NCBI GenBank assembly: GCA_002329465.1
Contig: DCTW01000005.1
Location: 4,131-68,130 of the forward strand
From: Candidatus Woesebacteria bacterium UBA1430
Lineage (GTDB): Bacteria > Patescibacteriota > Microgenomatia > UBA8517
DNA: 64,000 bases
Direction of reading: 5' to 3'
Below the pieces are notes generated by a model. The model searched no databases and was not told the DNA's origin. It saw only the letters and a program-made list of their open reading frames with translations. Position numbers and translations under genes: made by a program. Position 1 is the stretch's first letter; every line of letters starts with the position of its first letter. Shown piece after piece: positions 21,040 through 35,654 of the stretch.

Positions 21040-21939
21040 ATGAAAAAGATTTTACCCTTACTATTAATAGTATATTTTTTTGTCTTTTCCGAGAAATCTG
21101 TTTGTGCTCAAATAAAGACGGAAGTCCCAAGCCCTACCGCGACTTTCGAGTCTGAACCAACAGCCTCGCCGGATCCGACTCCGGAGCCAACCCCAAGGGT
21201 TGACATTACCCAAAAAAGCGAAGAATCAATAGGCCCTCTCGAAAAGCTTTTAAACGATCAGGTGTTAGGGCCTGTTTTTCCCGCAAACCCACTTAAATAT
21301 GCAATTCGTGCTTCAGTCAAAGCGGGAGTGCCGCCTAACACTATAGTACTTCTAATTCTCTTGCCGTTAATAGCCGCAGTTATAGCAGCGGCACGCCACA
21401 TAATAGGCTTAAGAGGATTTGGTATTTTTCTGCCGGCTGCTTTATCAATAGTATTTGTTGCGATAGGCCCTGTAGTCGGGCTTTTGTTGTTTTTAGTTAT
21501 AGTATCCGCCTCGACATTTTTTAGAATGCTTTTAAGAAAAATAAAAATCAAGCTTCAATATTTACCAAGGATGTCTTTGATTCTCTGGTTTGTTGTCTGC
21601 GGAGTTCTTTTGGTGTTGTTTCTCGCACCGCTTATCAAAATACCCGGGCTTACCAATGTTTCGATTTTCCCGGTTTTGCTTTTGGTTCTTCTTGCGGAAG
21701 ATTTTACCAAACTCCAGCTTGGAAAAAGCGCACGTACAGCGGTAAGCTTTATAACGGAAACAATTATTTTGTCTTTGATATCATATATGTTTCTTACCAT
21801 GCAGTCGCTTCAGCGTTATGCTTTGCTCAATCCGGAGATTACGCTTCTATCGGTTGCGGTTTTTGATCTCATATTAGGAAAATATACAGGCCTTCGCGTA
21901 TTGGAATACTGGAGATTCAGAAAACTAATTAAAGGCTAA
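21040..21939 (+). CDS. Signal peptide plus a seven-helix polytopic membrane protein.
   Basis: A cleavable-looking signal ('…FVFSEKSVCAQ') is followed by a Pro/Thr-rich linker and then seven hydrophobic helices. The gene sits directly upstream of the ATP-grasp genes. Confidence 0.55.
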   Translation: MKKILPLLLIVYFFVFSEKSVCAQIKTEVPSPTATFESEPTASPDPTPEPTPRVDITQKSEESIGPLEKLLNDQVLGPVFPANPLKYAIRASVKAGVPPNTIVLLILLPLIAAVIAAARHIIGLRGFGIFLPAALSIVFVAIGPVVGLLLFLVIVSASTFFRMLLRKIKIKLQYLPRMSLILWFVVCGVLLVLFLAPLIKIPGLTNVSIFPVLLLVLLAEDFTKLQLGKSARTAVSFITETIILSLISYMFLTMQSLQRYALLNPEITLLSVAVFDLILGKYTGLRVLEYWRFRKLIKG

Positions 21940-21943
21940 ATCT

Positions 21944-23269
21944 ATGAAAGCTCAAAACATCTTGGGTCTTAACGCAAGAACTCAACTTTTTTCATATCAA
22001 TACAATAAACCAAAGTCAAAACGCATTGCCTCATCAAAACTGTTAACTGAAAAGGTGCTTAAAAAGGCCGGTATTCCAACTCCGCTAATATATAAAAAAT
22101 TTATAAAGCCGAAAGATATTCTTAATTTTGACTGGAACGGCCTGCCTGAAGCTTTCGTAGTTAAACCAAGCAGGGGACTGGGAGGAAATGGGATCATAGT
22201 CATTAAAAAAAGATCTAAAGACAAAACAGGTTGGATCACAACAAGTAGGAAAAAATTACTCGAAGAAGATTTAAAACTCCATGTTTTAGATATTTTAGAA
22301 GGCGCTTTTAGCATGCACAACTCACCGGACGCAGCCTTTATTCAGGAATACGTACCTCGCCATAAAGCTTTTAGAAAGTACGCATATCGCGGCACGCCTG
22401 ATATAAGAATTATTGTTTTTAACAAAGTGCCGGTAATGGCGATGATGCGTCTTCCCACAAAAGATTCCGGCGGCCGAGCAAATCTCCATCAGGGCGCAAT
22501 AGGTGTGGGAGTTGATATAGCAACAGGTATAACAACAAAGTCTATTTGGTATGGCAATCAGATCCGCTATAAACCGGGCACAAAAAGAAAGCTTCATGGT
22601 ATTAAAATCCCTCACTGGACGGATATATTAAAAATTGCGGTCTTGAGCCAAGAAGCATCAGGGCTTGGACTTTTAGGGGTTGATATTGTTCTTCATCCTA
22701 CCAAAGGGCCAATGGTTCTCGAGTTAAACTATCAGCCGGGTACGCAGATACAGCTTGCAAACATGGCAGGTCTTAGAAAAAGGCTTGAGAGAGTTGAAGA
22801 TCTTAAAGTAAGAGATGCAGAGCATGGTGTTAAAATTGCAAAAGCACTTTTTATGTCTGACTTCTCAGATAGAGTAAAAGCAGATGAAGGGGTAAAAACA
22901 ATTTCGTCATTAGAAGAGATAAAAATAAAAGGCGCTCAAAAAGGGCTCAGAAAAAAGGTTTACGCAAAAGTCGATACGGGTGCCTGGAGAACGTCAATTA
23001 GTAAAAAATTAGCCGAAGAATTAGGACTTCTTAATCAGAATAACATCCTTTGGACTAAAGAATTCAAAAGTTCTCTTGGTAAAGAAGAAAGGCCCGTTAT
23101 AAGCCTTACATTTTGGCTTGCGGGTAGAAAAATCACAACTCCAGCTTCAGTCGCGAAAAGAATGACACTTAAATATCCAATAATAATAGGAAGAAAAAAT
23201 CTTAAAGGTTTCTTGGTAGATCCGCACATTCCCATAGATAAAGTAAAGGAGGCAAGAGAAAAAAAATGA
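21944..23269 (+). CDS. RimK-like ATP-grasp ligase fused to a C-terminal retropepsin-like (clan AA) aspartic protease domain.
   Basis: The ATP-grasp core carries 'VVKPSRGLGGNGIIVI' and 'ELNYQPG'. The C-terminal domain carries the active-site motif 'AKVDTGAWRTS' (D-T-G-A) and 'PIIIGRKNL'. Confidence 0.7.
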   Translation: MKAQNILGLNARTQLFSYQYNKPKSKRIASSKLLTEKVLKKAGIPTPLIYKKFIKPKDILNFDWNGLPEAFVVKPSRGLGGNGIIVIKKRSKDKTGWITTSRKKLLEEDLKLHVLDILEGAFSMHNSPDAAFIQEYVPRHKAFRKYAYRGTPDIRIIVFNKVPVMAMMRLPTKDSGGRANLHQGAIGVGVDIATGITTKSIWYGNQIRYKPGTKRKLHGIKIPHWTDILKIAVLSQEASGLGLLGVDIVLHPTKGPMVLELNYQPGTQIQLANMAGLRKRLERVEDLKVRDAEHGVKIAKALFMSDFSDRVKADEGVKTISSLEEIKIKGAQKGLRKKVYAKVDTGAWRTSISKKLAEELGLLNQNNILWTKEFKSSLGKEERPVISLTFWLAGRKITTPASVAKRMTLKYPIIIGRKNLKGFLVDPHIPIDKVKEAREKK

Positions 23270-24138
23270 AAGTAGCTTTAGTTACCACACTTCCTTCACT
23301 TATTGAAAATAGCCGCATTAAAGAAGAAATAAAAGCCCTAAACTACAGCTTCACACTAATAGATTTAAGCAATTTTTCCTTCAGCGTAGTTGGAGGAAAT
23401 TTAAGCGTAAAAGGCCTTACGGATCAAGAATTCGATATAATAATTTCAAGAGGAATATTTAGCTCAATAAAACCAATTATAGCCGTTCTTCAGGGATTAA
23501 GAAAAAAGGGAATTAAAATATTTGACAACAATTTTCTTCACGATCAATACCTTATAAACAAAACTTCCGATTTGGCAAAGCTGGCTTTAAATAATATCCC
23601 GGTTCCAAACACCGCTCAATCAAGAAATTTTTCCGACTACAAAAATTTATCAAGTAATTTAGGCTTCCCGTTGGTAATCAAATCTACACGCATGGGAAAA
23701 GGAGCAAATGTGTTCAAAATTTCTAATTTAAATGGTCTTTATAGATTTATCGAAGATGAAGAAAATCGAGGTCGTGAAGCTAAAAACTTTATTCTCCAAG
23801 AATTTATTCCTTATAAATACGACCTTCGTGTCTTAATTATCGGAGACAGGGTTTTTACGATGAGAAGAATACCGGCAAAAGGTGAGTTCAGAGCAAATTT
23901 TTCTTTAGGTGGGCATGTCGAAAAATTTGATTTGGATGAAGATGGCCTAAATTTGGCAAAATCTGCCCTTAAGGCAGTTGGTCTCGAAATTGGCGGAGTA
24001 GATTTGCTCATAACTAAAGACAACAAAAAATATGTTCTAGAAGTAAACCATACGGCTGGGTTTGTAGGCATGGAAAAAGCATATAATGAAAATATCGGAA
24101 AAGTATTTGTTGAATACGCCATAGCAAACGCAAGATGA
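23266..24138 (+). CDS. RimK/LysX-like ATP-grasp ligase.
   Basis: The motifs 'PLVIKSTRMGKGANV', 'QEFIPYKYDLRVLIIGDRV' and 'LEVNHTAGF' are present. The gene is translationally coupled to its neighbours. Confidence 0.75.
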   Translation: MKVALVTTLPSLIENSRIKEEIKALNYSFTLIDLSNFSFSVVGGNLSVKGLTDQEFDIIISRGIFSSIKPIIAVLQGLRKKGIKIFDNNFLHDQYLINKTSDLAKLALNNIPVPNTAQSRNFSDYKNLSSNLGFPLVIKSTRMGKGANVFKISNLNGLYRFIEDEENRGREAKNFILQEFIPYKYDLRVLIIGDRVFTMRRIPAKGEFRANFSLGGHVEKFDLDEDGLNLAKSALKAVGLEIGGVDLLITKDNKKYVLEVNHTAGFVGMEKAYNENIGKVFVEYAIANAR

Positions 24139-25037
24139 AAATTTTAATAGTTGGTTTAGTCAAAAATAGCCAGATCGTTCGCCTTCAAGAAGAAGGAGAA
24201 AAACGAGGCCACAAAGTAGAAGGCTGCTACACAAACGAGCTTGTAATAGAAACTGGGTCAGATTTTTTTAACCCGACGCTTAGAGGAAAATCCCTGAAGA
24301 ATTATGATCTAATTTACCTCTGGTCAGCAGGAAAACGCAGATGGGAATGGTACACAGCCTGTCTTTATCTTTGGGAAAAATTTGGAAGCATAATAATTAA
24401 CAAAAAGTGCATCTCCCCCGAGTACAATTTTTACTTAACTCCTGCAATTGATTACTATCTTCAGGTAAAAAATAAACTTCCATTTCCACGCTCCGCAATA
24501 ATATTTTCAACCAAATCAATTGACTCGGTTATCAAGGACTTTAACTTCCCGCTTATTCTTAAAACCTCAGGAGGAAGGCAGGGCAAGGGAGTATTCAAAA
24601 TAGAAGATAAAGATGCCCTAAAAAATAAAAGCGATGAGCTTTTCAAAGTTTCACCGAGCCTGGTTATAAGAGAGTTTATTCCAAACGACGGAGATATTAG
24701 AATTTTTACCGTCGGCTACAAGACAATTGCGGCAATGAAACGAATCCCCACACAAAAAGGCGAATTTAGAAGCAACATAAGTCAAGGAGGTAGGGGTGAA
24801 AATTTTAACCTCGATGATTATCCTAAAATTCGCGATATTGCCGAAAAAGCAAGTAAAATTATGGAAACAGAAATAGCGGGTGTGGACATTATAATTGATA
24901 AAAAGACACGCATGCCGTATATTTTGGAAATTAATCCCGGCCCGCAATTTACAGGGCTTGAAAAGTACACCAAGGTAAACGCCGCTAAAAAAATAATAGA
25001 ATATTTCGAAGAAGTTAAACATGCTATAATTCCATAA
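24135..25037 (+). CDS. RimK-like ATP-grasp ligase (third paralog).
   Basis: The motifs 'PLILKTSGGRQGKGVF', 'REFIPNDGDIRIFTVG' and 'LEINPGP' are present. Confidence 0.7.
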   Translation: MKILIVGLVKNSQIVRLQEEGEKRGHKVEGCYTNELVIETGSDFFNPTLRGKSLKNYDLIYLWSAGKRRWEWYTACLYLWEKFGSIIINKKCISPEYNFYLTPAIDYYLQVKNKLPFPRSAIIFSTKSIDSVIKDFNFPLILKTSGGRQGKGVFKIEDKDALKNKSDELFKVSPSLVIREFIPNDGDIRIFTVGYKTIAAMKRIPTQKGEFRSNISQGGRGENFNLDDYPKIRDIAEKASKIMETEIAGVDIIIDKKTRMPYILEINPGPQFTGLEKYTKVNAAKKIIEYFEEVKHAIIP

Positions 25038-25038
25038 A

Positions 25039-25518
25039 ATGTGCATAGAAGCAGGGGAAAACTGCCTGCTCAAAAGCTTTTGTGATTTTTTGGATTTTAA
25101 CCAACTATCAGAACTTCTTGTTGAGAGGATTATTCTGATACACGAAAACACAATACCTTCCTCGGATATATTTCCTCAGTGCCAAGGTGATTTATACCTT
25201 CGTCTTAAAGAGTTGATAAATGAAACTTTTAAAAACACTGATATTATAAAAAAATGTCACGATTTGATAAATGAAAGTGGGATAACCGGAAATGCTGATA
25301 GGGAACTTTTATGTATGGATATCTTTGGAAAAGACAATAATCTTAATAACCCCTCACAAATATATCTTGCCACCCTTTTTATTTCTTCACCCTTTCTTAA
25401 TCCTACCGAATTTGGGCAACATCTAATTGAAGGGCCAAAACAAATTTTGGGATACACCTATCAATTGTCCGCAAAAGACATTAAAACAGTATTTTCGGAA
25501 TTAAATGAATTACTTTAA
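25039..25518 (+). CDS. Hypothetical protein that starts one nucleotide after the stop of the third ATP-grasp gene.
   Basis: A 159-aa ORF with no recognised domain. Confidence 0.4.
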   Translation: MCIEAGENCLLKSFCDFLDFNQLSELLVERIILIHENTIPSSDIFPQCQGDLYLRLKELINETFKNTDIIKKCHDLINESGITGNADRELLCMDIFGKDNNLNNPSQIYLATLFISSPFLNPTEFGQHLIEGPKQILGYTYQLSAKDIKTVFSELNELL

Positions 25519-25539
25519 AAGCCTTTAGCTAAAAAAATT

Positions 25540-25974
25540 TTACTTAAGCTCTACGCTTGCGCCTGCCGCTTTAAGCTTTTCGGCCGCCTCTTTTGCCTCC
25601 TCGGCCTTGGCGTCTTTTAGAATCTCGGCGGGGACAGCCTCTGTCATATCTTTAGCTTCCTTAAGACCAAGATTTTGATTGATCTCACGGATTGCTTTTA
25701 TGACAGCTATTTTATTTGCACCGGAATCGGTAAGAACAACTGTTTTATTTCCGCCTTCATCAGCCGCAGAATCAGCCGAAGCATCACCGGCGGAAGCCGC
25801 AGGAGCTGCAGCCGGAGCAGCCATAGCAATAGGTGAAACACCGAGTTTGTCCTGCAATTCATTAACAAGATCAGATAGCTCAAGCACGGAAAGCTTGCTA
25901 ATTTCATCGACAATTTTTCCAACCTTCACGCTTACTTTTTTGTTGTCTTTATCTTCTGCTGCCATAATTTTCAC
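25540..25974 (-). CDS. rplL: Ribosomal protein L7/L12.
   Basis: An Ala-rich hinge is followed by the C-terminal 'KEAKDMTEAVP…LKAAGASVELK'. Confidence 0.9.
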   Translation of the reverse strand: MKIMAAEDKDNKKVSVKVGKIVDEISKLSVLELSDLVNELQDKLGVSPIAMAAPAAAPAASAGDASADSAADEGGNKTVVLTDSGANKIAVIKAIREINQNLGLKEAKDMTEAVPAEILKDAKAEEAKEAAEKLKAAGASVELK

Positions 25975-26501
25975 CCCCTTGCCTCAGTTAAAATCAAAAC
26001 AAGTTTTTGCATGTTTGCATTTAAAATTCCTGTTATTCCATACAAAGGTGAAGACACTGCTCCGACAACTCTTGCCAAAAGCTCGTCTTTTCCGGGAAGC
26101 TTTGAAATTCTTATCAATCCCTCTTTATCTTGAAAAACACCTTCAATAACCCCGGCTTTAAAATCCGTAATTTCTGCTTCAAGCTGGAACTTACCAAGTA
26201 TCTGAATGGGGGAAACAGGGTCATCATTCGAAAAAACCAAAGCGGTTTGGTTGGTTAAAGCATTTTCATTATCTGAGATTTCCTTGAATCCGGCATTAAT
26301 AGCAGCAATCTTAAGAAGCGTATTTTTTGCAACAAGCATATTTGCTCCTTGTTCCTTTAGCCTTTTTTTAAGCTCCTGCTGAGACTTTACGTCAAGGCGG
26401 CTATAATCTATTAAAGCAAAGCCCTTAGCAGACTTCATAATAGCCGAAAGCTCTTCTACCTTTTCCTTCTTTTCTGGTTTAATTTTGGTATCTGATTTCA
26501 T
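25971..26501 (-). CDS. rplJ: Ribosomal protein L10.
   Basis: The L10 N-terminal pattern 'EKKEKVEELSAIMKSAKGFALIDYSRL' is present. Confidence 0.9.
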   Translation of the reverse strand: MKSDTKIKPEKKEKVEELSAIMKSAKGFALIDYSRLDVKSQQELKKRLKEQGANMLVAKNTLLKIAAINAGFKEISDNENALTNQTALVFSNDDPVSPIQILGKFQLEAEITDFKAGVIEGVFQDKEGLIRISKLPGKDELLARVVGAVSSPLYGITGILNANMQKLVLILTEARG

Positions 26502-26504
26502 ATC

Positions 26505-26528
26505 AATAAAAAACGCGCCCGAAGCGCG
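26505..26528 (-). terminator. GC hairpin plus U-tract located in the short rplJ leader, directly 5' of the start codon. Likely an attenuator.
   Basis: On the minus strand the RNA reads 'cgcgc-uucgg-gcgcg' followed by 'uuuuuuauu', ending a few nucleotides before the rplJ AUG. Confidence 0.4.
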
Positions 26529-26581
26529 AATTTACTCCTCGGGGTGGCTTACTTATCTGCACCCTGTCTTCGGATAAAGTT

Positions 26582-26611
26582 ATTATATAGCTTACTGCTT
26601 CCAAAAGTCAA
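26582..26611 (-). promoter_or_regulatory. Sigma-70-like promoter for rplJ-rplL.
   Basis: On the minus strand: TTGACT, an 18-nt spacer, then TATAAT. Confidence 0.45.
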
Positions 26612-26629
26612 AATATGATAAATATTTTA

Positions 26630-26659
26630 TTGACTCAACTTATAATATTAAGTACTATA
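26630..26659 (+). promoter_or_regulatory. Promoter for the 26667 gene. It implies a leaderless or very short-leader mRNA.
   Basis: TTGACT, an 18-nt spacer, then TACTAT. The -10 element ends 7 nt before the ATG. Confidence 0.35.
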
Positions 26660-26666
26660 GGGAAAA

Positions 26667-27242
26667 ATGACCCAGATTGAAATTTCGATAGGTAAGCGCG
26701 ATTCTGTCCCCGCAACTCTTACAGACATAATAAACAGAAGATATCCCTTACTAACATTGGGAAATAGCGCTTCGTTATTAGAGGATTACCGCAACTGGAA
26801 AATTGATGGCTGTTGCATAAGAGTAGAGGATGTCTATTCTCCTTTCGGAAGAAATTTCCTTGACTATGCAATTTCCAGATGCCGCAAAGCAAAGAAAGGA
26901 GAACCTGCTTACTGTGAACATGGAATCAGGGAACACAATAATTTTTTTGAGGTTCTTAAGATTCTCCAAGCCAGAATTCGTAGCGGAGAATTCTTACTTC
27001 AAAGCCAGGACACGGGGAACAAAAAAGGACTTCCAGAACAAAGATTTATACTAACACCCAACAATTATTTTTCCGATAGAAATATCCCTTATGTTGTTTT
27101 TGAAGGGCTTTCAACAATTGCAAATATTGAAATGCAACAACTTGTATTACCAACACCTTCCGATAAAAGACGCTTTTTTGGCTTAATAACAACTAAAATA
27201 ATAACAGCTAAGCGATCAAATAGAGCTATACTCTTCTCTTAG
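26667..27242 (+). CDS. Hypothetical protein inserted in the ribosomal L1-L10 interval.
   Basis: A 191-aa ORF with no recognised motif, convergent with the two hypotheticals downstream of rplA. Confidence 0.45.
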   Translation: MTQIEISIGKRDSVPATLTDIINRRYPLLTLGNSASLLEDYRNWKIDGCCIRVEDVYSPFGRNFLDYAISRCRKAKKGEPAYCEHGIREHNNFFEVLKILQARIRSGEFLLQSQDTGNKKGLPEQRFILTPNNYFSDRNIPYVVFEGLSTIANIEMQQLVLPTPSDKRRFFGLITTKIITAKRSNRAILFS

Positions 27243-27477
27243 GTTTTTCTGGCAAAGGGAAATCTGGAATATGATTTGAATAGTTCTGAAGCGCCAGCGC
27301 GAATCCGGAATTTTTATTTGCCTCCTCGACCAATTTATTTATGATGGGATCAAAAAAATCAGATAAGTAGCGAGCCTCATCCGAATCATCTATGGGAACT
27401 AAATAGCAAAAAATTGACCCACCATCATTATAATCAACCTGCCCGATGTGAGAATTTCTATTATCGTCAAATGTCAT
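27226..27477 (-). CDS. Hypothetical small protein (83 aa).
   Basis: Its start overlaps the stop of the 180-aa gene ('ATGA'). Confidence 0.4.
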   Translation of the reverse strand: MTFDDNRNSHIGQVDYNDGGSIFCYLVPIDDSDEARYLSDFFDPIINKLVEEANKNSGFALALQNYSNHIPDFPLPEKPKRRV

Positions 27478-28016
27478 TCTAAGAGTCCTTTTTTTAAGCC
27501 CTTTCCTAGAACTATCGACGCTTGATCTTCTTTTAGACGGATCGCCCCACAGGGCTTAGATAATTTGTGAGAATCAAAAAGCGAAGCCTTAAATCTCAAT
27601 AAGTCTCGCAACCGTCCCGTTTCCACTTTAGGTATTTTCTTTTTTTCAGGCCATGCGTCAAGATATTCAGAAACTGGTTCTTTATCCATAAAGCTTTCTC
27701 TATGACTTAGATCCGGGATGCCAATTTGTAATAAACAAAATCTATTGGGATGCATTATCAAATATCGATGGTCAACATTATATCGATCTCGCTCAAGATT
27801 AACCCTTATGGGTTTAAGAATTACAACTCCTCCATCATTAATTTGGGCAGCAATAGGAAGATCGGTCAAATTTTGAATATCGGAAATTCTTTGTATGATA
27901 CTGACACGTCTCTCATAAGCACTAATTGCTGCAAGTTCATTTTGAGCGACGGCTTCCTCAAGGTCACTCAGTATATCAGCAGAGGGGACAGGTATATTAT
28001 CATATCTCTCAATCAT
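27474..28016 (-). CDS. Hypothetical protein (180 aa) coupled to the 3' end of rplA.
   Basis: Its start codon lies 8 nt inside the end of rplA. No family recognised. Confidence 0.45.
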   Translation of the reverse strand: MIERYDNIPVPSADILSDLEEAVAQNELAAISAYERRVSIIQRISDIQNLTDLPIAAQINDGGVVILKPIRVNLERDRYNVDHRYLIMHPNRFCLLQIGIPDLSHRESFMDKEPVSEYLDAWPEKKKIPKVETGRLRDLLRFKASLFDSHKLSKPCGAIRLKEDQASIVLGKGLKKGLLE

Positions 28017-28719
28017 TTAAATCAATCTTCACAGAAGGGGACATACTGGCGCAAACATGCGCGCGATCTACGTTTTTGAGGCCAATAGCGTCAAATATTG
28101 CCTTTATATTTTCAGCAATTTTAGAAGGATCCATTGAAAGCTTGCCGACTGTGGTGTGGATAACAGGCTGCTTTTTCTCCGTCTTTATCGTCACGCTTTT
28201 TGCGGAAAAAAACTCAGCTTCCTTTTCGGATTTTATTAGGGTTTTGTTTTTTGGATTAGGCATAAGTCCGCGTGGACCCAAAATTTTTGCAAAAGGTACC
28301 AATTTGGGCATAAATTCGGCAGTTGCTAGAAGTACATCAAAATCTATTTTTCCCGATTCAAGTTTTTTTATTGTTGCTTCACTTGCTAATTCAATGCGTT
28401 TTTCTTTTCCTGTGGAATGCGGTAATTCAAGATTAATTTGAATATCGTCTTTTTTTGTTTTTATATGAAGCTCTACTGTACCGTCAAACTTTGCAAGATG
28501 TGTTTCCTTAATAAGCTTTAGAGCATCTTTAATTGAATAAAGCTTGTTTTTATCTATTTTGGATTTCATTTCTTTATATCTTTTTCCTCGCTCCTTTTTG
28601 GCTCTTTTGGATGATTTTTTGGTTTCTTCTGCCTCTGGTTTTTCAAAAACCGGTTCAGCATTTTTAAGATCTGAAGCTTTTCCTGTTTCTCCGACTATTG
28701 CCGTTTTAGTTTTTCCCAT
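28009..28719 (-). CDS. rplA: Ribosomal protein L1.
   Basis: The motif 'LVPFAKILGPRGLMPNPKNKT' is present. Confidence 0.9.
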   Translation of the reverse strand: MGKTKTAIVGETGKASDLKNAEPVFEKPEAEETKKSSKRAKKERGKRYKEMKSKIDKNKLYSIKDALKLIKETHLAKFDGTVELHIKTKKDDIQINLELPHSTGKEKRIELASEATIKKLESGKIDFDVLLATAEFMPKLVPFAKILGPRGLMPNPKNKTLIKSEKEAEFFSAKSVTIKTEKKQPVIHTTVGKLSMDPSKIAENIKAIFDAIGLKNVDRAHVCASMSPSVKIDLND

Positions 28720-29140
28720 TGATTTTTACCCCCATGCTCCGTGCAGTTCCGGCGACAATTCGCTTCGCCGCTTCAACATCATCGGTATTCAAATCCGCCA
28801 TTTTTTCCCTTGCTATTTCATTAACTTGCGAATCATTTAAAGTACCTACAATATCCCTGGGCGTTGCCCCGGACCCCTTTTCAATTTTTAATGCCTTTTT
28901 AATCATCTCGGAAACAGGAGCAAGCCTAAGCTCGAAATCAAAGCTTCTATCCTCATAAATAGTAATAACAGCCGGGACAACCTGGCCCTTTTTTTCCGCT
29001 GTTTTGTCATTATAAGCCTTGACAAAGTCCATAATAGCTACACCGTGTTGTCCCAAAATAGGCCCGAGCGGAGCAGCGGGCGTTGCTTCCCCGGCTTTCA
29101 GATTTACCTTAACTGTAGTTAAAACTTTCTTTGCAGCCAT
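28706..29140 (-). CDS. rplK: Ribosomal protein L11.
   Basis: The motif 'PAAPLGPILGQHGVAIMDFVKAYN' is present. Confidence 0.9.
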   Translation of the reverse strand: MAAKKVLTTVKVNLKAGEATPAAPLGPILGQHGVAIMDFVKAYNDKTAEKKGQVVPAVITIYEDRSFDFELRLAPVSEMIKKALKIEKGSGATPRDIVGTLNDSQVNEIAREKMADLNTDDVEAAKRIVAGTARSMGVKINGKN

Positions 29141-29244
29141 ATTTAACCATTAACAATCAATCATTATCCATCAAATAGAGGTATTCATATTCTACTATTT
29201 ATTTGCCAAAAGTAAAGATTAGTATTATAAGATAAATATTAGAT

Positions 29245-29487
29245 ATGCCCGAACGAAGATGCATTCATGCTTGCGTTGCAAAAGGCGAGTGTAATCTAGC
29301 AGACGGTTGTGGATGTAATCTAAGGAGGTTGGTACAGGAGTATCCCGAAAACCAACTTGCCTACATACTGTCTGTTTTGGATAAGTACGCGCAAGGCTGC
29401 GAAGAAATTGACGAGCTTCGTCTGGACATTGAAAGGAGGCTTGACTATTTAAACGGCTCCGCCCCACCGGAAATATTTATTGGATAG
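29245..29487 (+). CDS. Small Cys-rich hypothetical protein.
   Basis: An 80-aa ORF containing 'CIHACVAKGECNLADGCGCN'. Confidence 0.3.
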   Translation: MPERRCIHACVAKGECNLADGCGCNLRRLVQEYPENQLAYILSVLDKYAQGCEEIDELRLDIERRLDYLNGSAPPEIFIG

Positions 29488-29496
29488 GCGTGTTTT

Positions 29497-30126
29497 TTAG
29501 TTACTTTCTTCAAAAGATTTCAAAATAGCAACAAGGTCTTGGGTCAGCGACTCTACCACATTTCTTCTTTCTGTTTTACTTAATTTTTTCCACCTCGAAT
29601 GAGAAGATGTCTTGTTTCCGGCATATCTGTCAATTCCAAAAAAATTTTCCTTGATTATATTTAAAGCATTATCTAGATGCGTAAAAACATCACTTTGTAC
29701 ATCGAAAGTAGGAGCAATCTCATGAAATAGTTTCAGAGCTGGATAAACTACAGCAATGCTGTTTCCTGTTAATTTATTTCTATTTAAGAAATTATTAACC
29801 CTCTCACTTGCGCCAGAACCATAAGTATTTTTCACCTCATCCAAAAGGTTTTGTTTTCTTATAGCCCTTTTGGCATGGCTTTTATATGAATCTTCAATTA
29901 TTGGTAAATTAACATATTCTTCCATGGCCGAGAGTATGTTGCCAACAAATTCTCGATCTTTCTCGTTGGTCACGGCAGATAAGTCATACTCCTCCGTTAA
30001 GCCATAATCTTTTGGCGGAATTATTTTTATCGAATATCCGGACTTTTCGATTATTCCCAAAATATCAGAATCGCTTAACTCTAGGCCTTCTCTTGGGTTA
30101 AATCCCTCAATATCTTCATAATTCAT
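29497..30126 (-). CDS. Hypothetical protein.
   Basis: A 209-aa ORF with no recognised motif. Confidence 0.4.
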   Translation of the reverse strand: MNYEDIEGFNPREGLELSDSDILGIIEKSGYSIKIIPPKDYGLTEEYDLSAVTNEKDREFVGNILSAMEEYVNLPIIEDSYKSHAKRAIRKQNLLDEVKNTYGSGASERVNNFLNRNKLTGNSIAVVYPALKLFHEIAPTFDVQSDVFTHLDNALNIIKENFFGIDRYAGNKTSSHSRWKKLSKTERRNVVESLTQDLVAILKSFEESN

Positions 30127-30159
30127 AAATGGATAAATTTATTATATAATAAATTTTCT

Positions 30160-30933
30160 ATGACCGAAGAGAGCGGTGAGCATCAAGATCCATATGATAT
30201 TAATCGTTTTCTTGATACATTTCTCACAGTTTATGAAGGACATCAAAACGAGCAGGGAACTTTATCTAGAGAAGATAGACCCAGGGAAGTAGCAGCAAAA
30301 GTTAGTTCGGTTGGTACAAAAGCCTACTCTTTAATAAATAGAGATCATGCGCCGGAAGAAATAATTCGCGACTTTGCAGACAAAGCACTGGGTAGAATAA
30401 TTGCAAAATATCCACAGGAAGCAGACCGGATTGCAAAAGCAGTAGGCGAAAATAAATATATTAGTCCTTATTCAAATGAAATTAATAAATATGCAGTAGA
30501 TGTAATAAATAGCCTGACCAGAAAGCAACTTGAAGATTTTACAGACGTTGAACTTGTAAATCTGGTCAGAATTGGTGGCGACAGAAATTCTGTTGTTGAA
30601 AAAATGAGAAAACTTCCTTACAAGGAAGGCTTCAGGCTTCGACTGGCTCAATCTTTGGTTTTTGGCGCGGGAGAAGTAGAGGATTTTCAAAAAATGTCTC
30701 ATGTTATAGGCACAACCTGGGCTGGCATTATTCAACGTCTTGATTATCCGTCTAAACAGGAAGAAAAAATAAAATTAGATGAAGCAAGGTCTCTTATGGA
30801 TCAATCTGTCGTTTTCATAAAAGAAAATTTGCCCGGAATAAGCGAAGAAGACTTAAGAGAATATTTTTATTCTGATCGCACACCCGATGCTATCCAAAAG
30901 CTTATTGAACACACCGGCTTCTCACTGGAATAA
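30160..30933 (+). CDS. Hypothetical protein.
   Basis: A 257-aa ORF with no recognised motif. Confidence 0.4.
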   Translation: MTEESGEHQDPYDINRFLDTFLTVYEGHQNEQGTLSREDRPREVAAKVSSVGTKAYSLINRDHAPEEIIRDFADKALGRIIAKYPQEADRIAKAVGENKYISPYSNEINKYAVDVINSLTRKQLEDFTDVELVNLVRIGGDRNSVVEKMRKLPYKEGFRLRLAQSLVFGAGEVEDFQKMSHVIGTTWAGIIQRLDYPSKQEEKIKLDEARSLMDQSVVFIKENLPGISEEDLREYFYSDRTPDAIQKLIEHTGFSLE

Positions 30934-30962
30934 TTTGCCTTTCCAAGTAGATTTGTAAGTTT

Positions 30963-31586
30963 TTAAACCTTCGTCACCTGAAGAAAATCAAGTTCAACCG
31001 GGGTCTCTCTTCCAAAAATAGAAACAAGCACTTTTACCTTTCCTTTTTCCTCATCAACCTCGTTTATTGTTCCAAGAAAATCGCTAAAAGGCCCATCCGT
31101 AATTTTAACGGCTTCTCCGACGGATAGCTTTGTCTTAAACCTGGGAGCAGGAGATGAAATAAACTTTTGGATATTTGAAACCTCGCTTTCCGAAAGGGGA
31201 GTCGGCTGGTTTCCGATTCCCACAAATCCCGTTATTCCGGGAGTTGTCCTCACGGCAAGCCAGCTATTATCATCCAATATCATTTTTACAAGCAAATACC
31301 CCGGGAAAATTTTTTCCTTAATATTTGCCTTTTTGCCTCCCCTTACTATCACCCTGTCTTGAGTAGGCACAAGAAGTTCAAAAATCCGCTCTTTTAAATT
31401 CATAGACTCAACTCTCTGCCTCAAAGTTTCGGCAACTCTTACTTCATGTCCGCTTGCGGTGTGAACAACATACCACTTGGCATTTTCGTCCGAAGTTTTG
31501 CTAACTACAATATGCCCGGGAATTTTTTTCTTTCCCGTGCCTTTTTCGTAAACGCTTTCTTCTTTTTTATTCTGATCTGTATCCAT
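30963..31586 (-). CDS. nusG: Transcription antiterminator NusG.
   Basis: The NGN domain '[11 protein letters not shown]' and a C-terminal KOW domain are present. Confidence 0.9.
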
Positions 31587-31591
31587 GTATC

Positions 31592-31777
31592 TTATTTTGC
31601 AATTATTAGCTCAACCAATTTTGTAAAGGCTATATCAAGCCCGCCAAGATATGCGCCCACAATAGCTGAAATCAAAAAAACTACAGCAGTAAGCCTAACC
31701 ACCTCATCCTTTTTTGGCCAATCAACTCTGTCAAGCTCACCCTTAACTTCCTTTAAATAGCCAATTACTGCTTTCAC
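31592..31777 (-). CDS. secE: Preprotein translocase subunit SecE.
   Basis: A 61-aa single-transmembrane protein immediately upstream of nusG. Confidence 0.75.
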
Positions 31778-33943: not shown

Positions 33944-35123
33944 TATGAAAATTGGAAATAAAGCTCTTTTCATAATTTTTACTCTATTTATTCTTTTAGG
34001 AATTGCCTCAGCGGTTTTCTTAAGTCAAAAAACCCAAATAACCACCAAAAAAACCGCCCCTGCAACACAGCTTTCTTTGGTAGGTGACAAAGCAGCCAGG
34101 CTAAGCGAAGAATATAATCTCTCCGTAAATATGGAAACAGGCGAAAACAATGTAGTGGGAGCCGAGCTATATATTGATTATGACCCGGAATTTCTTGAGC
34201 CTACTGCGGTTTCAAAAGGAGCTTTTATGCAGTCCGCCGATGTAATAGGCCCAAGAATCGAATCGGGGGAGATCTTTTATACACTTATAGTAAAGCCAAA
34301 CGACACACCTGTTACTGGAAGTGGAACTATAGCCCAAATTACTTTTAAGACCCTAAAAACCGGAAACACAAATATTAGTCTAAACGAAGGGAAAACACTG
34401 GCAGTAGCAGTAGGGGAAGGAAGTGTTAATGTAATCACAAAATATTCACCTTTAAGCCTAAATATTTATAACACGTTTGTATCTTTGCGCTTAAGCCCCG
34501 ATAAATCCGGATACAATGTAGGTGACGAAGTTATAATTTATGCCTGGGTAAATAGTGGAGGAGTAGATTTGGTGGGGATCGAAATGTTTATAAAGTACGA
34601 TTCCAATATGCTTCGCTTTGAAAAAGCAGACGCGCTTGATTATTTCCAAAATCCGGATATTGTAGGTCCCAATGTTAACACTGAAGCGGGCACAATCCAC
34701 TATACACAAATTCTTCCTCCCGAAAATCACAACACAAAAGAGCAGGGGAACATTGCTGCCTTCACCTTCACGGCTCTAAAAAGCGGCCAGTCAAGCTTGT
34801 CGTTTATAAATCAGCAGACAATCGCAGTAGCCTATGGCCAAGGCCAGCAAAACGTGCTGAAAGAAGCCTTTCCGGCTGAAGTTTTCGTATCGGGCGCTAC
34901 GGCCTCGCCCGGTCCTTCATTGAGCCCGAGCCCGACTCCGGGCGGAGTTATTCCGGGCGATATAAATAGGGACGGCAAAGTAGATATCCTGGACTACACA
35001 CTTCTTCTTGAGTATTTTAGTAAAGAATCGTCAGCCTATCCCAATGCGGATCTGAATGCAGATGGCAAGATCAACCTTTTGGATTATATAGTACTTTTCG
35101 AAAATTTCGGCGCTTCTTCATAA
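33924..35123 (+). CDS. Secreted protein with two cohesin-like domains and a C-terminal double dockerin-like repeat.
   Basis: The cohesin-like blocks are 'IDYDPEFLEPTAVSKGAF…IAQITFKTLKTGNTNISL' and 'IKYDSNMLRFEKADALDYF…AAFTFTALKSGQSSLSF'. The dockerin-like repeats are 'GDINRDGKVDILDYTLLLEYF' and 'DLNADGKINLLDYIVLFENFG'. Confidence 0.55.
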   Translation: MGNVLTNMKIGNKALFIIFTLFILLGIASAVFLSQKTQITTKKTAPATQLSLVGDKAARLSEEYNLSVNMETGENNVVGAELYIDYDPEFLEPTAVSKGAFMQSADVIGPRIESGEIFYTLIVKPNDTPVTGSGTIAQITFKTLKTGNTNISLNEGKTLAVAVGEGSVNVITKYSPLSLNIYNTFVSLRLSPDKSGYNVGDEVIIYAWVNSGGVDLVGIEMFIKYDSNMLRFEKADALDYFQNPDIVGPNVNTEAGTIHYTQILPPENHNTKEQGNIAAFTFTALKSGQSSLSFINQQTIAVAYGQGQQNVLKEAFPAEVFVSGATASPGPSLSPSPTPGGVIPGDINRDGKVDILDYTLLLEYFSKESSAYPNADLNADGKINLLDYIVLFENFGASS

Positions 35124-35654
35124 ATGCCAAAAATTCGGATAAAAATTTTTTTGATTGGAATAGCGATTATCGCATTGTCGATTTTTGTTTATTTTACTTT
35201 TTCTTCAAAAAACAATGATTCAGAAGATGGCTTTGATGCAGTTTTTAGCGGGCACGAAAAAGCTTGGCAAAAAGGGGAGATCAATTCGCTTACAATATCG
35301 CTCAAAGAGGGAGTCGGAAAAGACTCCTTTCTTCACGCAGTAGCATTTACCATAAGTTTTGATCCAGAAACGCTCGAGCCGATATCTGTCCATGAAGGCA
35401 CAATCTGGAGCAAAACAAACAAACTCGAAGAAAAGATAGATCATTCCCTCGGATTAATCAAAGTAAGCTACGGAATGGCTTTTGATGGAGAGATTGTTGA
35501 AGGTGCAAAAACGCTCGCTTCGTTCGAATTTAAAGTAATTGGTGATAAGAATGAAGTCGAGATAATTCCACTTGCAAAAAGTGCAGCGCGCATGGGCGAG
35601 CGCGATTACCTTTGGATAAATCTAAAACCGGCTATCCTAAAGATAAAACAATAA
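35124..35654 (+). CDS. Small cohesin-like secreted protein.
   Basis: An N-terminal transmembrane/signal segment is followed by 'TISFDPETLEPISVHEGTIW…ASFEFKVIGDKNEVEI'. Confidence 0.45.
   Translation: MPKIRIKIFLIGIAIIALSIFVYFTFSSKNNDSEDGFDAVFSGHEKAWQKGEINSLTISLKEGVGKDSFLHAVAFTISFDPETLEPISVHEGTIWSKTNKLEEKIDHSLGLIKVSYGMAFDGEIVEGAKTLASFEFKVIGDKNEVEIIPLAKSAARMGERDYLWINLKPAILKIKQ

What the first reader, a model, noticed from the sequence alone, without database searches (positions are those of the whole stretch)
26667..28016. Three unknown genes inserted between rplA and rplJ, one overlapping the 3' end of rplA
The rplK-rplA-rplJ-rplL order is among the most conserved gene arrangements in bacteria, with only a regulatory leader between rplA and rplJ. 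Here a 1.5-kb segment is interposed. A 180-aa gene starts 8 nt inside the end of rplA. An 83-aa gene overlaps that one by an ATGA stop/start. A 191-aa gene runs convergently with its own promoter. None has a recognisable domain. The two small coupled genes riding on the L11-L1 transcript could be ribosome-associated factors, a toxin-antitoxin-like pair, or a novel accessory module exploiting a highly expressed operon.
Basis: seen in the sequence. Interest (0 to 1): 0.7.

Follow-up and report, generated by a model that had tools for sequence, protein, structure and literature searches.

The report
Strain-variable orphan genes between rplA and rplJ
The gap between two ribosomal-protein operons in this Woesebacteria (CPR) genome holds two lineage-restricted genes of unknown function, one broken in two by a single-base deletion, and every relative examined carries different cargo in the same gap, so this is accessory-gene turnover, not a new ribosome factor.

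Summary
The ORFs are real and sit at the stated coordinates, but there are two genes, not three. ORF180 and ORF83 are halves of one 263-aa gene. In the window a poly-A run has 7 A. Sister strains more than 99.7% identical have 8 A and an uninterrupted ORF.

ORF263 has no credible homologue outside its own species in 5.8 billion clustered or 1.84 billion representative proteins. It is absent from the sister genome Ch104b (L1 94% identical), where two unrelated opposite-strand ORFs fill exactly that slot.

ORF191 is shared with Ch104b (83% identity, dN/dS 0.32). It has a conserved promoter back-to-back with the rplJ promoter, which is followed by an L10-leader-like element.

All 10 Woesebacteria/Microgenomates loci examined carry ORFs between rplA and rplJ (459-4699 bp, mostly orphans). 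In a broad metagenome sample, 44 of 50 loci with L10 detected downstream have spacers of 700 bp or less.

No Pfam, NCBIfam, PHROG, PADLOC, PDB or phage match was found, and the AlphaFold models are unusable. Ribosome-factor and toxin-antitoxin readings are not supported. An in-frame A_AAA_AAA heptamer would, by a -1 slip, regenerate exactly the fused protein; this is a curiosity without supporting signals.

Function remains unknown. This is ordinary accessory-gene turnover at an operon boundary.

The parts
28009..28719 (-). rplA (ribosomal protein L1, 236 aa); its last codons overlap the ORF263 start
   Evidence: Pfam PF00687 E 4.8e-25. 94% identical to L1 of Ca. Woesebacteria Ch104b, CP055307.1.
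27226..28016 (-). ORF263, a single species-restricted orphan gene, split in this window into ORF180 (27474-28016) and ORF83 (27226-27477)
   Evidence: The fused 263-aa form P0001 occurs on 7 contigs and the split form on 13 contigs. No credible homologue in 5.8e9 clusters or 1.84e9 representatives. Absent from Ch104b.
27489..27495 (-). Poly-A run: 7 A here, 8 A in the fused allele. In frame it reads TTA AAA AAA GGA, an A_AAA_AAA heptamer
   Evidence: 7 A in the window and L001-L010, 8 A in L013-L016. The indel is perfectly linked to SNPs at 27909, 27917 and 27928. No stable structure lies downstream (z -0.23).
26667..27242 (+). ORF191, a basic (pI 9.5) Cys/His-containing orphan protein shared only with Ch104b (184 aa, 83% identity). 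Its last 7 codons lie in the swapped cassette
   Evidence: conservation. (dN/dS 0.32). (pI, host-like codon usage). (homology with Ch104b ends at codon 184).
26630..26658 (+). Promoter-like site for ORF191 (TTGACT-17-TACTAT), ending 8 nt before the ATG, so the mRNA would be nearly leaderless
   Evidence: Both hexamers are conserved in Ch104b while the spacer diverged.
26582..26611 (-). rplJ promoter-like site (TTGACT-18-TATAAT, 11 of 12), back-to-back with the ORF191 promoter
   Evidence: Conserved in Ch104b.
26499..26591 (-). L10-leader-like element with a terminator-like hairpin (26514-26528) directly before the rplJ ATG
   Evidence: Rfam RF00557 scores 27.4 bits, below the gathering score of 44, E 0.11, with the core CCGAAGACAG...CCGAGG...U-run. 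Hairpin. Nearly invariant between the two species.
25971..26501 (-). rplJ (L10), followed by rplL at 25540-25974
   Evidence: Pfam PF00466 E 2e-23; PF00542 and PF16320 for rplL.

Best explanation
The 1.5-kb spacer is an accessory-gene slot at the boundary between two separate transcription units, rplKA and rplJL. It holds two genes.

(1) ORF263 is a cytoplasmic orphan protein private to this species. It has no promoter or terminator of its own that I could find. Its ATG sits 5 nt upstream of the rplA stop, so it is most likely read from the rplKA transcript by termination-reinitiation (inferred). In the window's strain a 1-nt deletion (A8 to A7) splits it into a 180-aa and an 83-aa ORF with an ATGA junction. 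The direction of the change is not resolved.

(2) ORF191 is the resident gene of the slot in this genus. It is a basic protein with a Cys/His cluster and is under purifying selection. It is expressed from a conserved promoter divergent from the rplJ promoter.

Neither is a ribosome component. They are dispensable, fast-turnover cargo. Their function is unknown; my guess is a strain-specific intracellular accessory or conflict-type role, which is inference only.

Cargo in this slot is exchanged between lineages by recombination anchored in the conserved flanking ribosomal genes (inferred). The slot tolerates cargo because rplJL keeps its own promoter and L10-leader-like element.
For: Shown:
- One gene, not two: P0001 (263 aa) equals ORF180 plus ORF83, with 8 A against 7 A.
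- The 7-A allele is real and inherited. It occurs in 10 independently assembled loci and is perfectly linked to three SNPs.
- Orphan status is established.
- Ch104b has rplK, rplA, ORF184 and rplJ conserved. Exactly the ORF263 segment (window 28003-27219) is replaced by non-homologous ORF177 and ORF135 on the other strand, overlapping-coupled to ORF184.
- Two further non-homologous slots lie at the neighbouring operon boundaries.
- DNA identity steps from 91% to 85% across the slot, and rplJ dS is 0.74 against 0.18-0.38 for its neighbours. This fits a recombination breakpoint there.
- All 8 more distant Woesebacteria/Microgenomates contigs carry 1-8 unrelated ORFs between rplA and rplJ.
- In a broad metagenome sample, 44 of 50 loci with L10 found downstream have spacers of 700 bp or less.
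- ORF191 has dN/dS 0.32.
- The divergent promoters and the L10-leader-like element are conserved.
- GC, GC3 and codon usage of the inserts match host genes.
Against: - No direct evidence of expression, co-transcription or reinitiation.
- ORF263 has no outgroup. Within-species changes are 3 nonsynonymous to 2 synonymous plus the frameshift (codon effects from comparing P0001 with the window translation). Selective constraint on it is therefore unproven, and it could be decaying.
- No mobility genes, tRNA or flanking repeats mark the slot, so the exchange mechanism is inferred from the pattern only.
- None of 32 cargo proteins from relatives matches a PADLOC defence model. A 'conflict system' role has no positive support beyond one PIN-MazE pair in L018.
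- One Microgenomates-like locus, L029 (L1 55% identical), has an uninterrupted 59-bp spacer.
Confidence: 0.7

Rival explanations
1. ORF263 is a non-functional remnant. It would be a recently acquired or de novo ORF that is decaying, and the A7 frameshift is a pseudogenising mutation now common in the population.
For: - The frameshift allele is on 13 contigs against 7 for the intact one.
- No homologues exist anywhere.
- The gene is dispensable in the sister species.
- Within-species changes are 3 nonsynonymous to 2 synonymous.
- AlphaFold gives no confident fold, pLDDT 35.
Against: - Both halves stay open.
- The 0-frame stop falls on an ATG of the downstream frame (ATGA), so both parts can still be made.
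- Codon usage is host-like and frame-specific for ORF83, less clearly for ORF180.
- Strains are more than 99.7% identical, so there has been too little time for decay to show either way.
Confidence: 0.25
2. This is programmed recoding. On the 7-A allele, a -1 ribosomal slip on A_AAA_AAA, or RNA-polymerase slippage adding one A, yields both a 180-aa product and the full 263-aa product. This resembles dnaX or IS3-family OrfA/OrfAB.
For: - In frame the site reads TTA AAA AAA GGA. A -1 slip gives L-K-K-R-T-L-R-M..., identical to P0001.
- The 0-frame stops 4 codons later.
- The 7-A allele is widespread across samples.
Against: - There is no stimulatory downstream structure (z -0.23).
- The genome shows no Shine-Dalgarno usage that could act as an upstream stimulator: 6 of 56 genes against 7 of 56 in the control window.
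- The 8-A allele makes the fusion constitutively, so the arrangement is not conserved.
- The indel is SNP-linked like an ordinary mutation.
- No transposase-like features or terminal repeats were found.
Confidence: 0.08
3. ORF180 and ORF83 form a type II toxin-antitoxin-like pair carried on the L11-L1 transcript.
For: - Two small ORFs with an ATGA overlap.
- An acidic small partner: ORF83 has pI 4.6 against 6.9 for ORF180.
- A genuine PIN-MazE pair occupies the same slot in L018.
Against: - The two are one polypeptide in 4 of 14 loci.
- No toxin or antitoxin domain in Pfam, NCBIfam or PADLOC.
- No promoter of its own.
- No homologues elsewhere, whereas toxin-antitoxin families are typically widespread and mobile.
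Confidence: 0.04
4. ORF263 and/or ORF191 are lineage-specific ribosome-associated or r-protein-regulating factors. For example, ORF191 could be a divergently transcribed regulator of rplJL.
For: - Physical coupling of ORF263 to rplA.
- ORF191 is basic and has a Cys/His cluster. It is conserved with back-to-back promoters next to the rplJ leader in both species.
Against: - ORF263 is absent from the sister species and frameshifted here.
- ORF191 has no homologue beyond the two species, although all relatives have the same ribosomal proteins.
- No DNA- or RNA-binding domain was detected.
- Relatives carry unrelated cargo in the same place.
Confidence: 0.06
5. The split is a sequencing or assembly artefact at a homopolymer.
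For: Homopolymer indels are a classic error type.
Against: 7 A is found in 10 loci from at least 8 independent runs and assemblies. 8 A is found in 4 others. The indel is perfectly linked to three nearby SNPs.
Confidence: 0.01

Closest known systems
Known splits of the rplKAJL-rpoBC cluster between rplKA and rplJL
   Same: Genes are interposed exactly at the rplA|rplJ boundary, between two units that each have their own promoter. PMC4481853 reports that the splits in this most-conserved block fall mostly between rplKA and rplJL-rpoBC. bioRxiv 10.1101/2025.04.14.645983 notes that genes separate rplKA from rplJL in Bradyrhizobium diazoefficiens and Actinomyces israelii. From my own knowledge, M. 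tuberculosis has mmaA and other genes between rplA and rplJ.
   Different: Here the interruption is lineage-wide in Woesebacteria (10 of 10 loci). The cargo is almost entirely orphan genes, and it differs even between genomes whose L1 is 94% identical.
Integration or replacement hotspots ('islets') between core genes
   Same: Non-homologous gene content sits at the same position between conserved flanking core genes in close relatives. Sequence divergence steps across the junction. The comparison with the hotspot concept rests on my own knowledge of the pangenome literature.
   Different: No integrase, tRNA or att repeats. Cargo is 1-8 small orphan genes and no recognisable defence or mobility genes. 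One cargo gene is fused to the translation of a ribosomal-protein gene.
-1 frameshift or slippage genes (dnaX; IS3-family OrfA/OrfAB)
   Same: An in-frame A_AAA_AAA heptamer, a 0-frame stop a few codons downstream, and a -1 frame ORF whose use gives a fusion protein.
   Different: No stimulatory structure or SD. An in-frame 8-A allele coexists. No homology to DnaX or transposases.
Type II toxin-antitoxin pairs
   Same: Small overlapping ORFs with an ATGA junction in a variable region. A true PIN-MazE pair sits in the same slot in L018.
   Different: The two ORFs are one protein in sister strains. No toxin-antitoxin domains were found.
L10 leader (Rfam RF00557)
   Same: It lies immediately upstream of rplJ. 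It has the core motifs CCGAAGACAG and CCGAGG and a terminator-like hairpin followed by a U-run, and it is nearly invariant between species.
   Different: It scores 27.4 bits, below the gathering score of 44, and is shortened (93 nt against a 138-position model).

Membership tests
Type II toxin-antitoxin module | Two separate cognate proteins encoded by adjacent ORFs in all carriers | tested here: not met
   ORF180 and ORF83 are a single 263-aa ORF in L013-L016.
Type II toxin-antitoxin module | Recognisable toxin and/or antitoxin domain | tested here: not met
   No Pfam, NCBIfam or PADLOC hit at E<=1 of any relevance.
Type II toxin-antitoxin module | Toxicity of one partner neutralised by the other | not testable with these tools
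   Needs expression experiments.
Ribosomal protein or translation factor | Conserved presence across the lineage | tested here: not met
   ORF263 occurs in one species only. ORF191 occurs in two species. Both are absent from 8 other Woesebacteria loci.
Ribosomal protein or translation factor | Sequence or structure similarity to known ribosomal or translation families | tested here: not met
   The only PDB sequence 'hit' for ORF191 is L20 at E 0.39, which is noise.
Ribosomal protein or translation factor | Physical association with ribosomes | not testable with these tools
   Needs fractionation and proteomics.
Programmed -1 frameshift cassette (dnaX / IS3 type) | X_XXY_YYZ slippery heptamer in the 0 frame, with an overlapping -1 ORF | tested here: met
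   TTA AAA AAA GGA. The -1 reading reproduces the P0001 sequence.
Programmed -1 frameshift cassette (dnaX / IS3 type) | Stimulatory element (downstream hairpin or pseudoknot, or upstream SD) | tested here: not met
   Fold z-score -0.23. No SD usage in this genome.
Programmed -1 frameshift cassette (dnaX / IS3 type) | Frameshift arrangement conserved among homologues | tested here: not met
   The only other allele is in-frame with 8 A.
Replacement hotspot / genomic islet between core genes | Non-homologous content at the same site between conserved flanks in close relatives | tested here: met
   Window against Ch104b. Wider relatives.
Replacement hotspot / genomic islet between core genes | Mobility signatures (integrase, tRNA, flanking repeats). 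These are typical but not obligatory. | tested here: not met
   No tRNA nearby, no boundary repeats, no integrase domain.
L10 leader RF00557 | Covariance-model score at or above the gathering threshold | tested here: not met
   27.4 bits against 44.
L10 leader RF00557 | Position directly 5' of rplJ with conserved core motifs and an attenuator hairpin | tested here: met

The most novel reading that the evidence does not exclude
The A7 allele of ORF263 is a working recoding site. The gene is translationally chained to ribosomal protein L1. It would produce a 180-aa product, plus an 83-aa product by ATGA restart, or the 263-aa fusion by a -1 slip on A_AAA_AAA or by transcriptional slippage. The isoform ratio would then report on or respond to ribosome or RNA-polymerase fidelity. 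More broadly, the promoter divergent from rplJ in Woesebacteria may serve as a dedicated expression platform for swappable orphan cargo.
Probability: 0.07. Interest if true: 0.55.

Novelty: new member of a known kind. Interest (0 to 1): 0.3.

Why it matters
The result corrects an appealing but wrong reading. There is no new ribosome-linked module here, and the 'coupled gene pair' is one gene split by a homopolymer indel.

What remains of modest value:
- In Woesebacteria the rplA-rplJ adjacency, otherwise very stable, is routinely broken. The gap acts as a slot for fast-turnover orphan genes, mostly transcribed divergently from rplJ.
- Three adjacent operon boundaries have undergone non-homologous replacement between genomes about 90% identical.
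- This gives a compact, well-anchored locus for studying how CPR bacteria gain and lose 'dark matter' genes.
- It also gives a natural fused/split allele pair for testing whether gene fission by frameshift is tolerated.

Tried and rejected
- Domain searches for ORF180, ORF83, ORF191, ORF209 and ORF257 against Pfam, PHROGs, NCBIfam and PADLOC gave nothing credible.
- The word-indexed search of 5.8e9 proteins found only same-species clusters, plus Ch104b for ORF191.
- Exhaustive phmmer of the fused 263-aa protein against 1.84e9 representatives gave one extra hit, P0004. It is a translated tandem repeat and was rejected.
- AlphaFold2 gave pLDDT 35 for ORF263 (single sequence) and 48 for ORF191 (3-sequence alignment). 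Neither model is usable.
- Foldseek of the ORF191 model against PDB gave best E 0.1 and TM 0.2 or less, which is meaningless.
- PDB sequence searches gave only noise.
- Phage GenBank tblastn and IMG/VR scans gave no match, so there is no sign of phage origin.
- phmmer --max of the window and Ch104b cargo against all cargo proteins of 8 relatives found no relationship.
- PADLOC on 32 cargo proteins of relatives gave zero hits. A 'defence island' label is therefore not supported.
- The repeat search around the slot found only short matches consistent with chance, and no att-like boundaries.
- I first took AAGGA upstream of ORF83 as a Shine-Dalgarno site. I rejected this because the genome shows no SD enrichment.
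- Literature searches for Ch104b, or for rplA/rplJ in Patescibacteria, found nothing specific.
Full report
**1. What is in the sequence**

On the minus strand the window carries this order:
- secE (31592-31777) and nusG (30963-31586)
- a gap holding three unknown ORFs
- rplK (28706-29140) and rplA (28009-28719)
- the 1507-bp stretch in question
- rplJ (25971-26501) and rplL (25540-25974)

- ORF180 is 27474-28016(-), and its ATG lies 8 nt inside rplA.
- ORF83 is 27226-27477(-), with an ATGA overlap onto ORF180.
- ORF191 is 26667-27242(+), convergent, and overlaps ORF83 by 17 nt.

None has a Pfam, PHROG, NCBIfam or PADLOC match. The organism is a Candidatus Woesebacteria (CPR/Patescibacteria) bacterium. 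The only close genome in GTDB representatives is CP055307.1, 'Candidatus Woesebacteria bacterium isolate Ch104b', whose L1 is 94% identical.

**2. Three ORFs are two genes**

The only database relative of ORF180 is P0001, 263 aa and 97% identical. P0001 is ORF180 joined to ORF83 through '...GLKKRTLRMTFDD...'.

The DNA explains the difference. The window and ten independently assembled loci (L001-L010) have 7 A at 27489-27495. L013-L016 have 8 A and one continuous ORF. All these loci are 99.2-100% identical to the window across rplK-rplL.

The indel is perfectly linked to three SNPs about 400 bp away (27909, 27917, 27928). Other SNPs show all four gamete combinations. It is therefore an inherited polymorphism in a recombining population. 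It is not a sequencing error, and it is not rapid phase switching.

The split form is on 13 contigs and the fused form on 7. Without an outgroup I cannot say which is ancestral.

In the 7-A allele the upstream frame stops four codons later at a TGA that overlaps an ATG of the downstream frame. Both parts could therefore still be made.

The in-frame context TTA AAA AAA GGA is an A_AAA_AAA slippery heptamer. A -1 slip would read L-K-K-R-T-L-R-M, exactly the fused protein. Against a programmed event:
- There is no structure downstream (z -0.23).
- The genome shows no Shine-Dalgarno usage that could stimulate a slip.
- The in-frame 8-A allele coexists.

I rate programmed recoding as unlikely, about 8%.

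**3. Are they real genes?**

- A 263-codon open frame exceeds anything seen in shuffles of the window (mean longest 145, max 190 codons).
- GC, GC3 and codon usage are those of the host's genes.
- ORF191 is conserved in Ch104b (P0003, 184 aa, 83% identity). Its dN/dS is 0.32, against 0.07-0.11 for rplA, rplK and rplJ. It is a real protein under moderate constraint.
- For ORF263 the only variation is 3 nonsynonymous and 2 synonymous differences plus the frameshift. Constraint on it is unproven.

**4. What they are not**

- An exhaustive phmmer search of the fused protein against 1.84 billion representatives found only itself and a translated tandem repeat.
- There are no hits in phage GenBank, IMG/VR or PDB sequences.
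- AlphaFold2 models are of low confidence (pLDDT 35 and 48). Foldseek on the better model gave nothing.
- Both proteins are soluble and hydrophilic, with no hydrophobic stretch apparent on reading the sequences. ORF263 is mildly acidic (pI 5.9). ORF191 is basic (pI 9.5) and has an invariant C49-C50...C72...C83-x-H85...H90 cluster.

**5. Comparative anatomy of the slot**

Against Ch104b, the window aligns in four blocks:

| Window block | DNA identity |
|---|---|
| 34498-30967 | 91% |
| 29486-28004 | 91% |
| 27218-25537 | 85% |
| 25032-22629 | 83% |

Three segments between these blocks have no similarity:

| Window segment | Window content | Ch104b content |
|---|---|---|
| 30966-29487 | ORF257 + ORF209 | a methyltransferase-like 379-aa ORF + an 86-aa ORF |
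| 28003-27219 | ORF263 | ORF177 + ORF135 on the opposite strand |
| 25536-25033 | ORF159 | a 244-aa ORF |

The ORF263 swap has sharp boundaries:
- On one side homology ends at the last sense codon of rplA (AAT GAT TGA against AAT AGT TGA).
- On the other side it ends at codon 184 of ORF191. The last seven residues of ORF191 are therefore encoded by cassette DNA.

In Ch104b, ORF184, ORF135 and ORF177 overlap start-to-stop as one operon running towards rplA. Four further metagenomic contigs show the same arrangement.

Divergence steps from 91% to 85% across the slot, and rplJ dS is 0.74 against 0.18-0.38 for its neighbours. This is what a recombination breakpoint in the slot would produce. That reading is inference.

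No tRNA, integrase or boundary repeats are present.

**6. The wider lineage**

The next-nearest L1 proteins are 63% identical or less. I examined eight long contigs carrying them, L017-L024, which include named Woesebacteria genomes. All have ORFs between rplA and rplJ, and most also have ORFs between nusG and rplK:

| Locus | rplA-rplJ spacer (bp) |
|---|---|
| L023 | 459 |
| L019 | 550 |
| L020 | 2071 |
| L022 | 2144 |
| L017 | 2551 |
| L024 | 3420 |
| L021 | 3508 |
| L018 | 4699 |

- The cargo is mostly on the strand opposite the ribosomal genes and almost all lacks Pfam domains.
- Exceptions are a PIN-MazE pair in L018 and, in the nusG-rplK slot, glycosyltransferases, a PD-(D/E)xK protein, a nucleotidyltransferase and an ABC transporter.
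- Some cargo families recur: a roughly 280-aa family with a 57-85-aa partner in L021, L022 and L024, and a 446/475-aa family in L017 and L020.
- None is related to the window's ORFs.
- None of 32 cargo proteins matches a PADLOC defence model.

As a control I used a broad metagenome sample recovered with generic L1 motifs. Of 50 loci where L10 was detected downstream, 44 have a spacer of 700 bp or less and 6 have 1.5-6.9 kb. Another 12 loci have no detectable L10 within at least 2 kb.

The literature already identifies this boundary as the place where the cluster splits (PMC4481853; bioRxiv 10.1101/2025.04.14.645983).

**7. Why the slot tolerates cargo**

rplJL keeps its own regulatory unit:
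- a near-consensus promoter (TTGACT-18-TATAAT, 26582-26611)
- an L10-leader-like element (26499-26591; RF00557 at 27.4 bits, below threshold, but with the core motifs)
- a GC hairpin with a T-run immediately before the ATG

All of these are nearly invariant between the two species, while the DNA between the divergent promoters has drifted.

ORF191's promoter (TTGACT-17-TACTAT) ends 8 nt before its ATG, which suggests a nearly leaderless mRNA (inference).

ORF263 has no convincing promoter or terminator of its own and overlaps rplA. Read-through transcription and termination-reinitiation from L1 translation are therefore the most economical expression model. This is inferred, not shown.

**8. 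Verdict**

- The toxin-antitoxin and ribosome-factor interpretations are not supported.
- The best description is a strain- or species-variable accessory-gene slot at an operon boundary. It contains one genus-level orphan gene (ORF191) and one species-level orphan gene (ORF263) that is frameshift-split in this strain.
- Function remains unknown. I commit only to 'dispensable cytoplasmic accessory proteins, not ribosome components'.
- Interest is modest. It rests on the lineage-wide erosion of a famously stable gene junction, the clean cassette replacement, and the fused/split allele pair.

Noticed in passing
window 29487-30966: The nusG-rplK junction is also interrupted, by ORF257(+) and ORF209(-), both orphans. 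In Ch104b the same slot holds an unrelated methyltransferase-like 379-aa ORF plus an 86-aa ORF. Relatives carry glycosyltransferases, a PD-(D/E)xK protein with a nucleotidyltransferase, or an ABC transporter there.
   Followed up: partly
window 29245-29487 (+): An 80-aa Cys-rich acidic protein lies divergent from rplK. It is conserved in Ch104b (80% identity, dN/dS 0.28) and has a 44%-identical C-terminal match upstream of rplK in L023. No Pfam family.
   Followed up: partly
window 25033-25536: A third non-homologous slot lies just after rplL: ORF159 here against a 244-aa ORF in Ch104b. rpoBC does not follow rplL in this genome.
   Followed up: partly
window ~21040-25037 (+): A cluster of three ATP-grasp/RimK-like genes plus a 7TM-transglutaminase gene lies next to rplJL. 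The same association recurs in L019, L020, L022 and L023. It may be a conserved peptide- or ribosomal-protein-modification system linked to this operon.
   Followed up: no
whole window: There is no Shine-Dalgarno enrichment upstream of start codons: 6 of 56 genes against 7 of 56 in a control window. Many genes overlap by 4-14 nt. This suggests SD-independent initiation and coupling in this organism.
   Followed up: partly
window 27909-27928: Three nonsynonymous SNPs (A30E, Y33H, R35S in ORF263) fall within 20 bp and are perfectly linked to the A7/A8 indel. This could be a small gene-conversion tract or local selection.
   Followed up: no
L021 6111-8204; L022 5743-6917; L024 5718-7556: A recurring two-gene module, a 57-85-aa protein plus a roughly 280-aa protein, sometimes in tandem duplicate, occupies the rplA-rplJ slot of several Woesebacteria. 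It has no Pfam family.
   Followed up: partly
L018 7558-8226: A PIN-domain toxin with a MazE/AbrB antitoxin pair sits in the rplA-rplJ slot of another Microgenomates genome.
   Followed up: no
window 25537-27218 vs 28004-29486: Identity to Ch104b drops from 91% to 85% across the ORF263 slot. rplJ dS is 0.74, against 0.18-0.38 for neighbouring genes. This suggests a mosaic or recombinant history.
   Followed up: partly
window ~33945-35654: Cohesin- and dockerin-domain proteins are encoded a few kb upstream of secE, according to Pfam marks on the identical contig L001. A cellulosome-type scaffold module in a CPR bacterium is unusual.
   Followed up: no
window 27021-27038 / 27477-27494: An 18-nt inverted repeat (83% complementary) pairs the A-tract/ATGA junction of ORF263 with a site inside ORF191. 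It is probably chance in AT-rich DNA.
   Followed up: no
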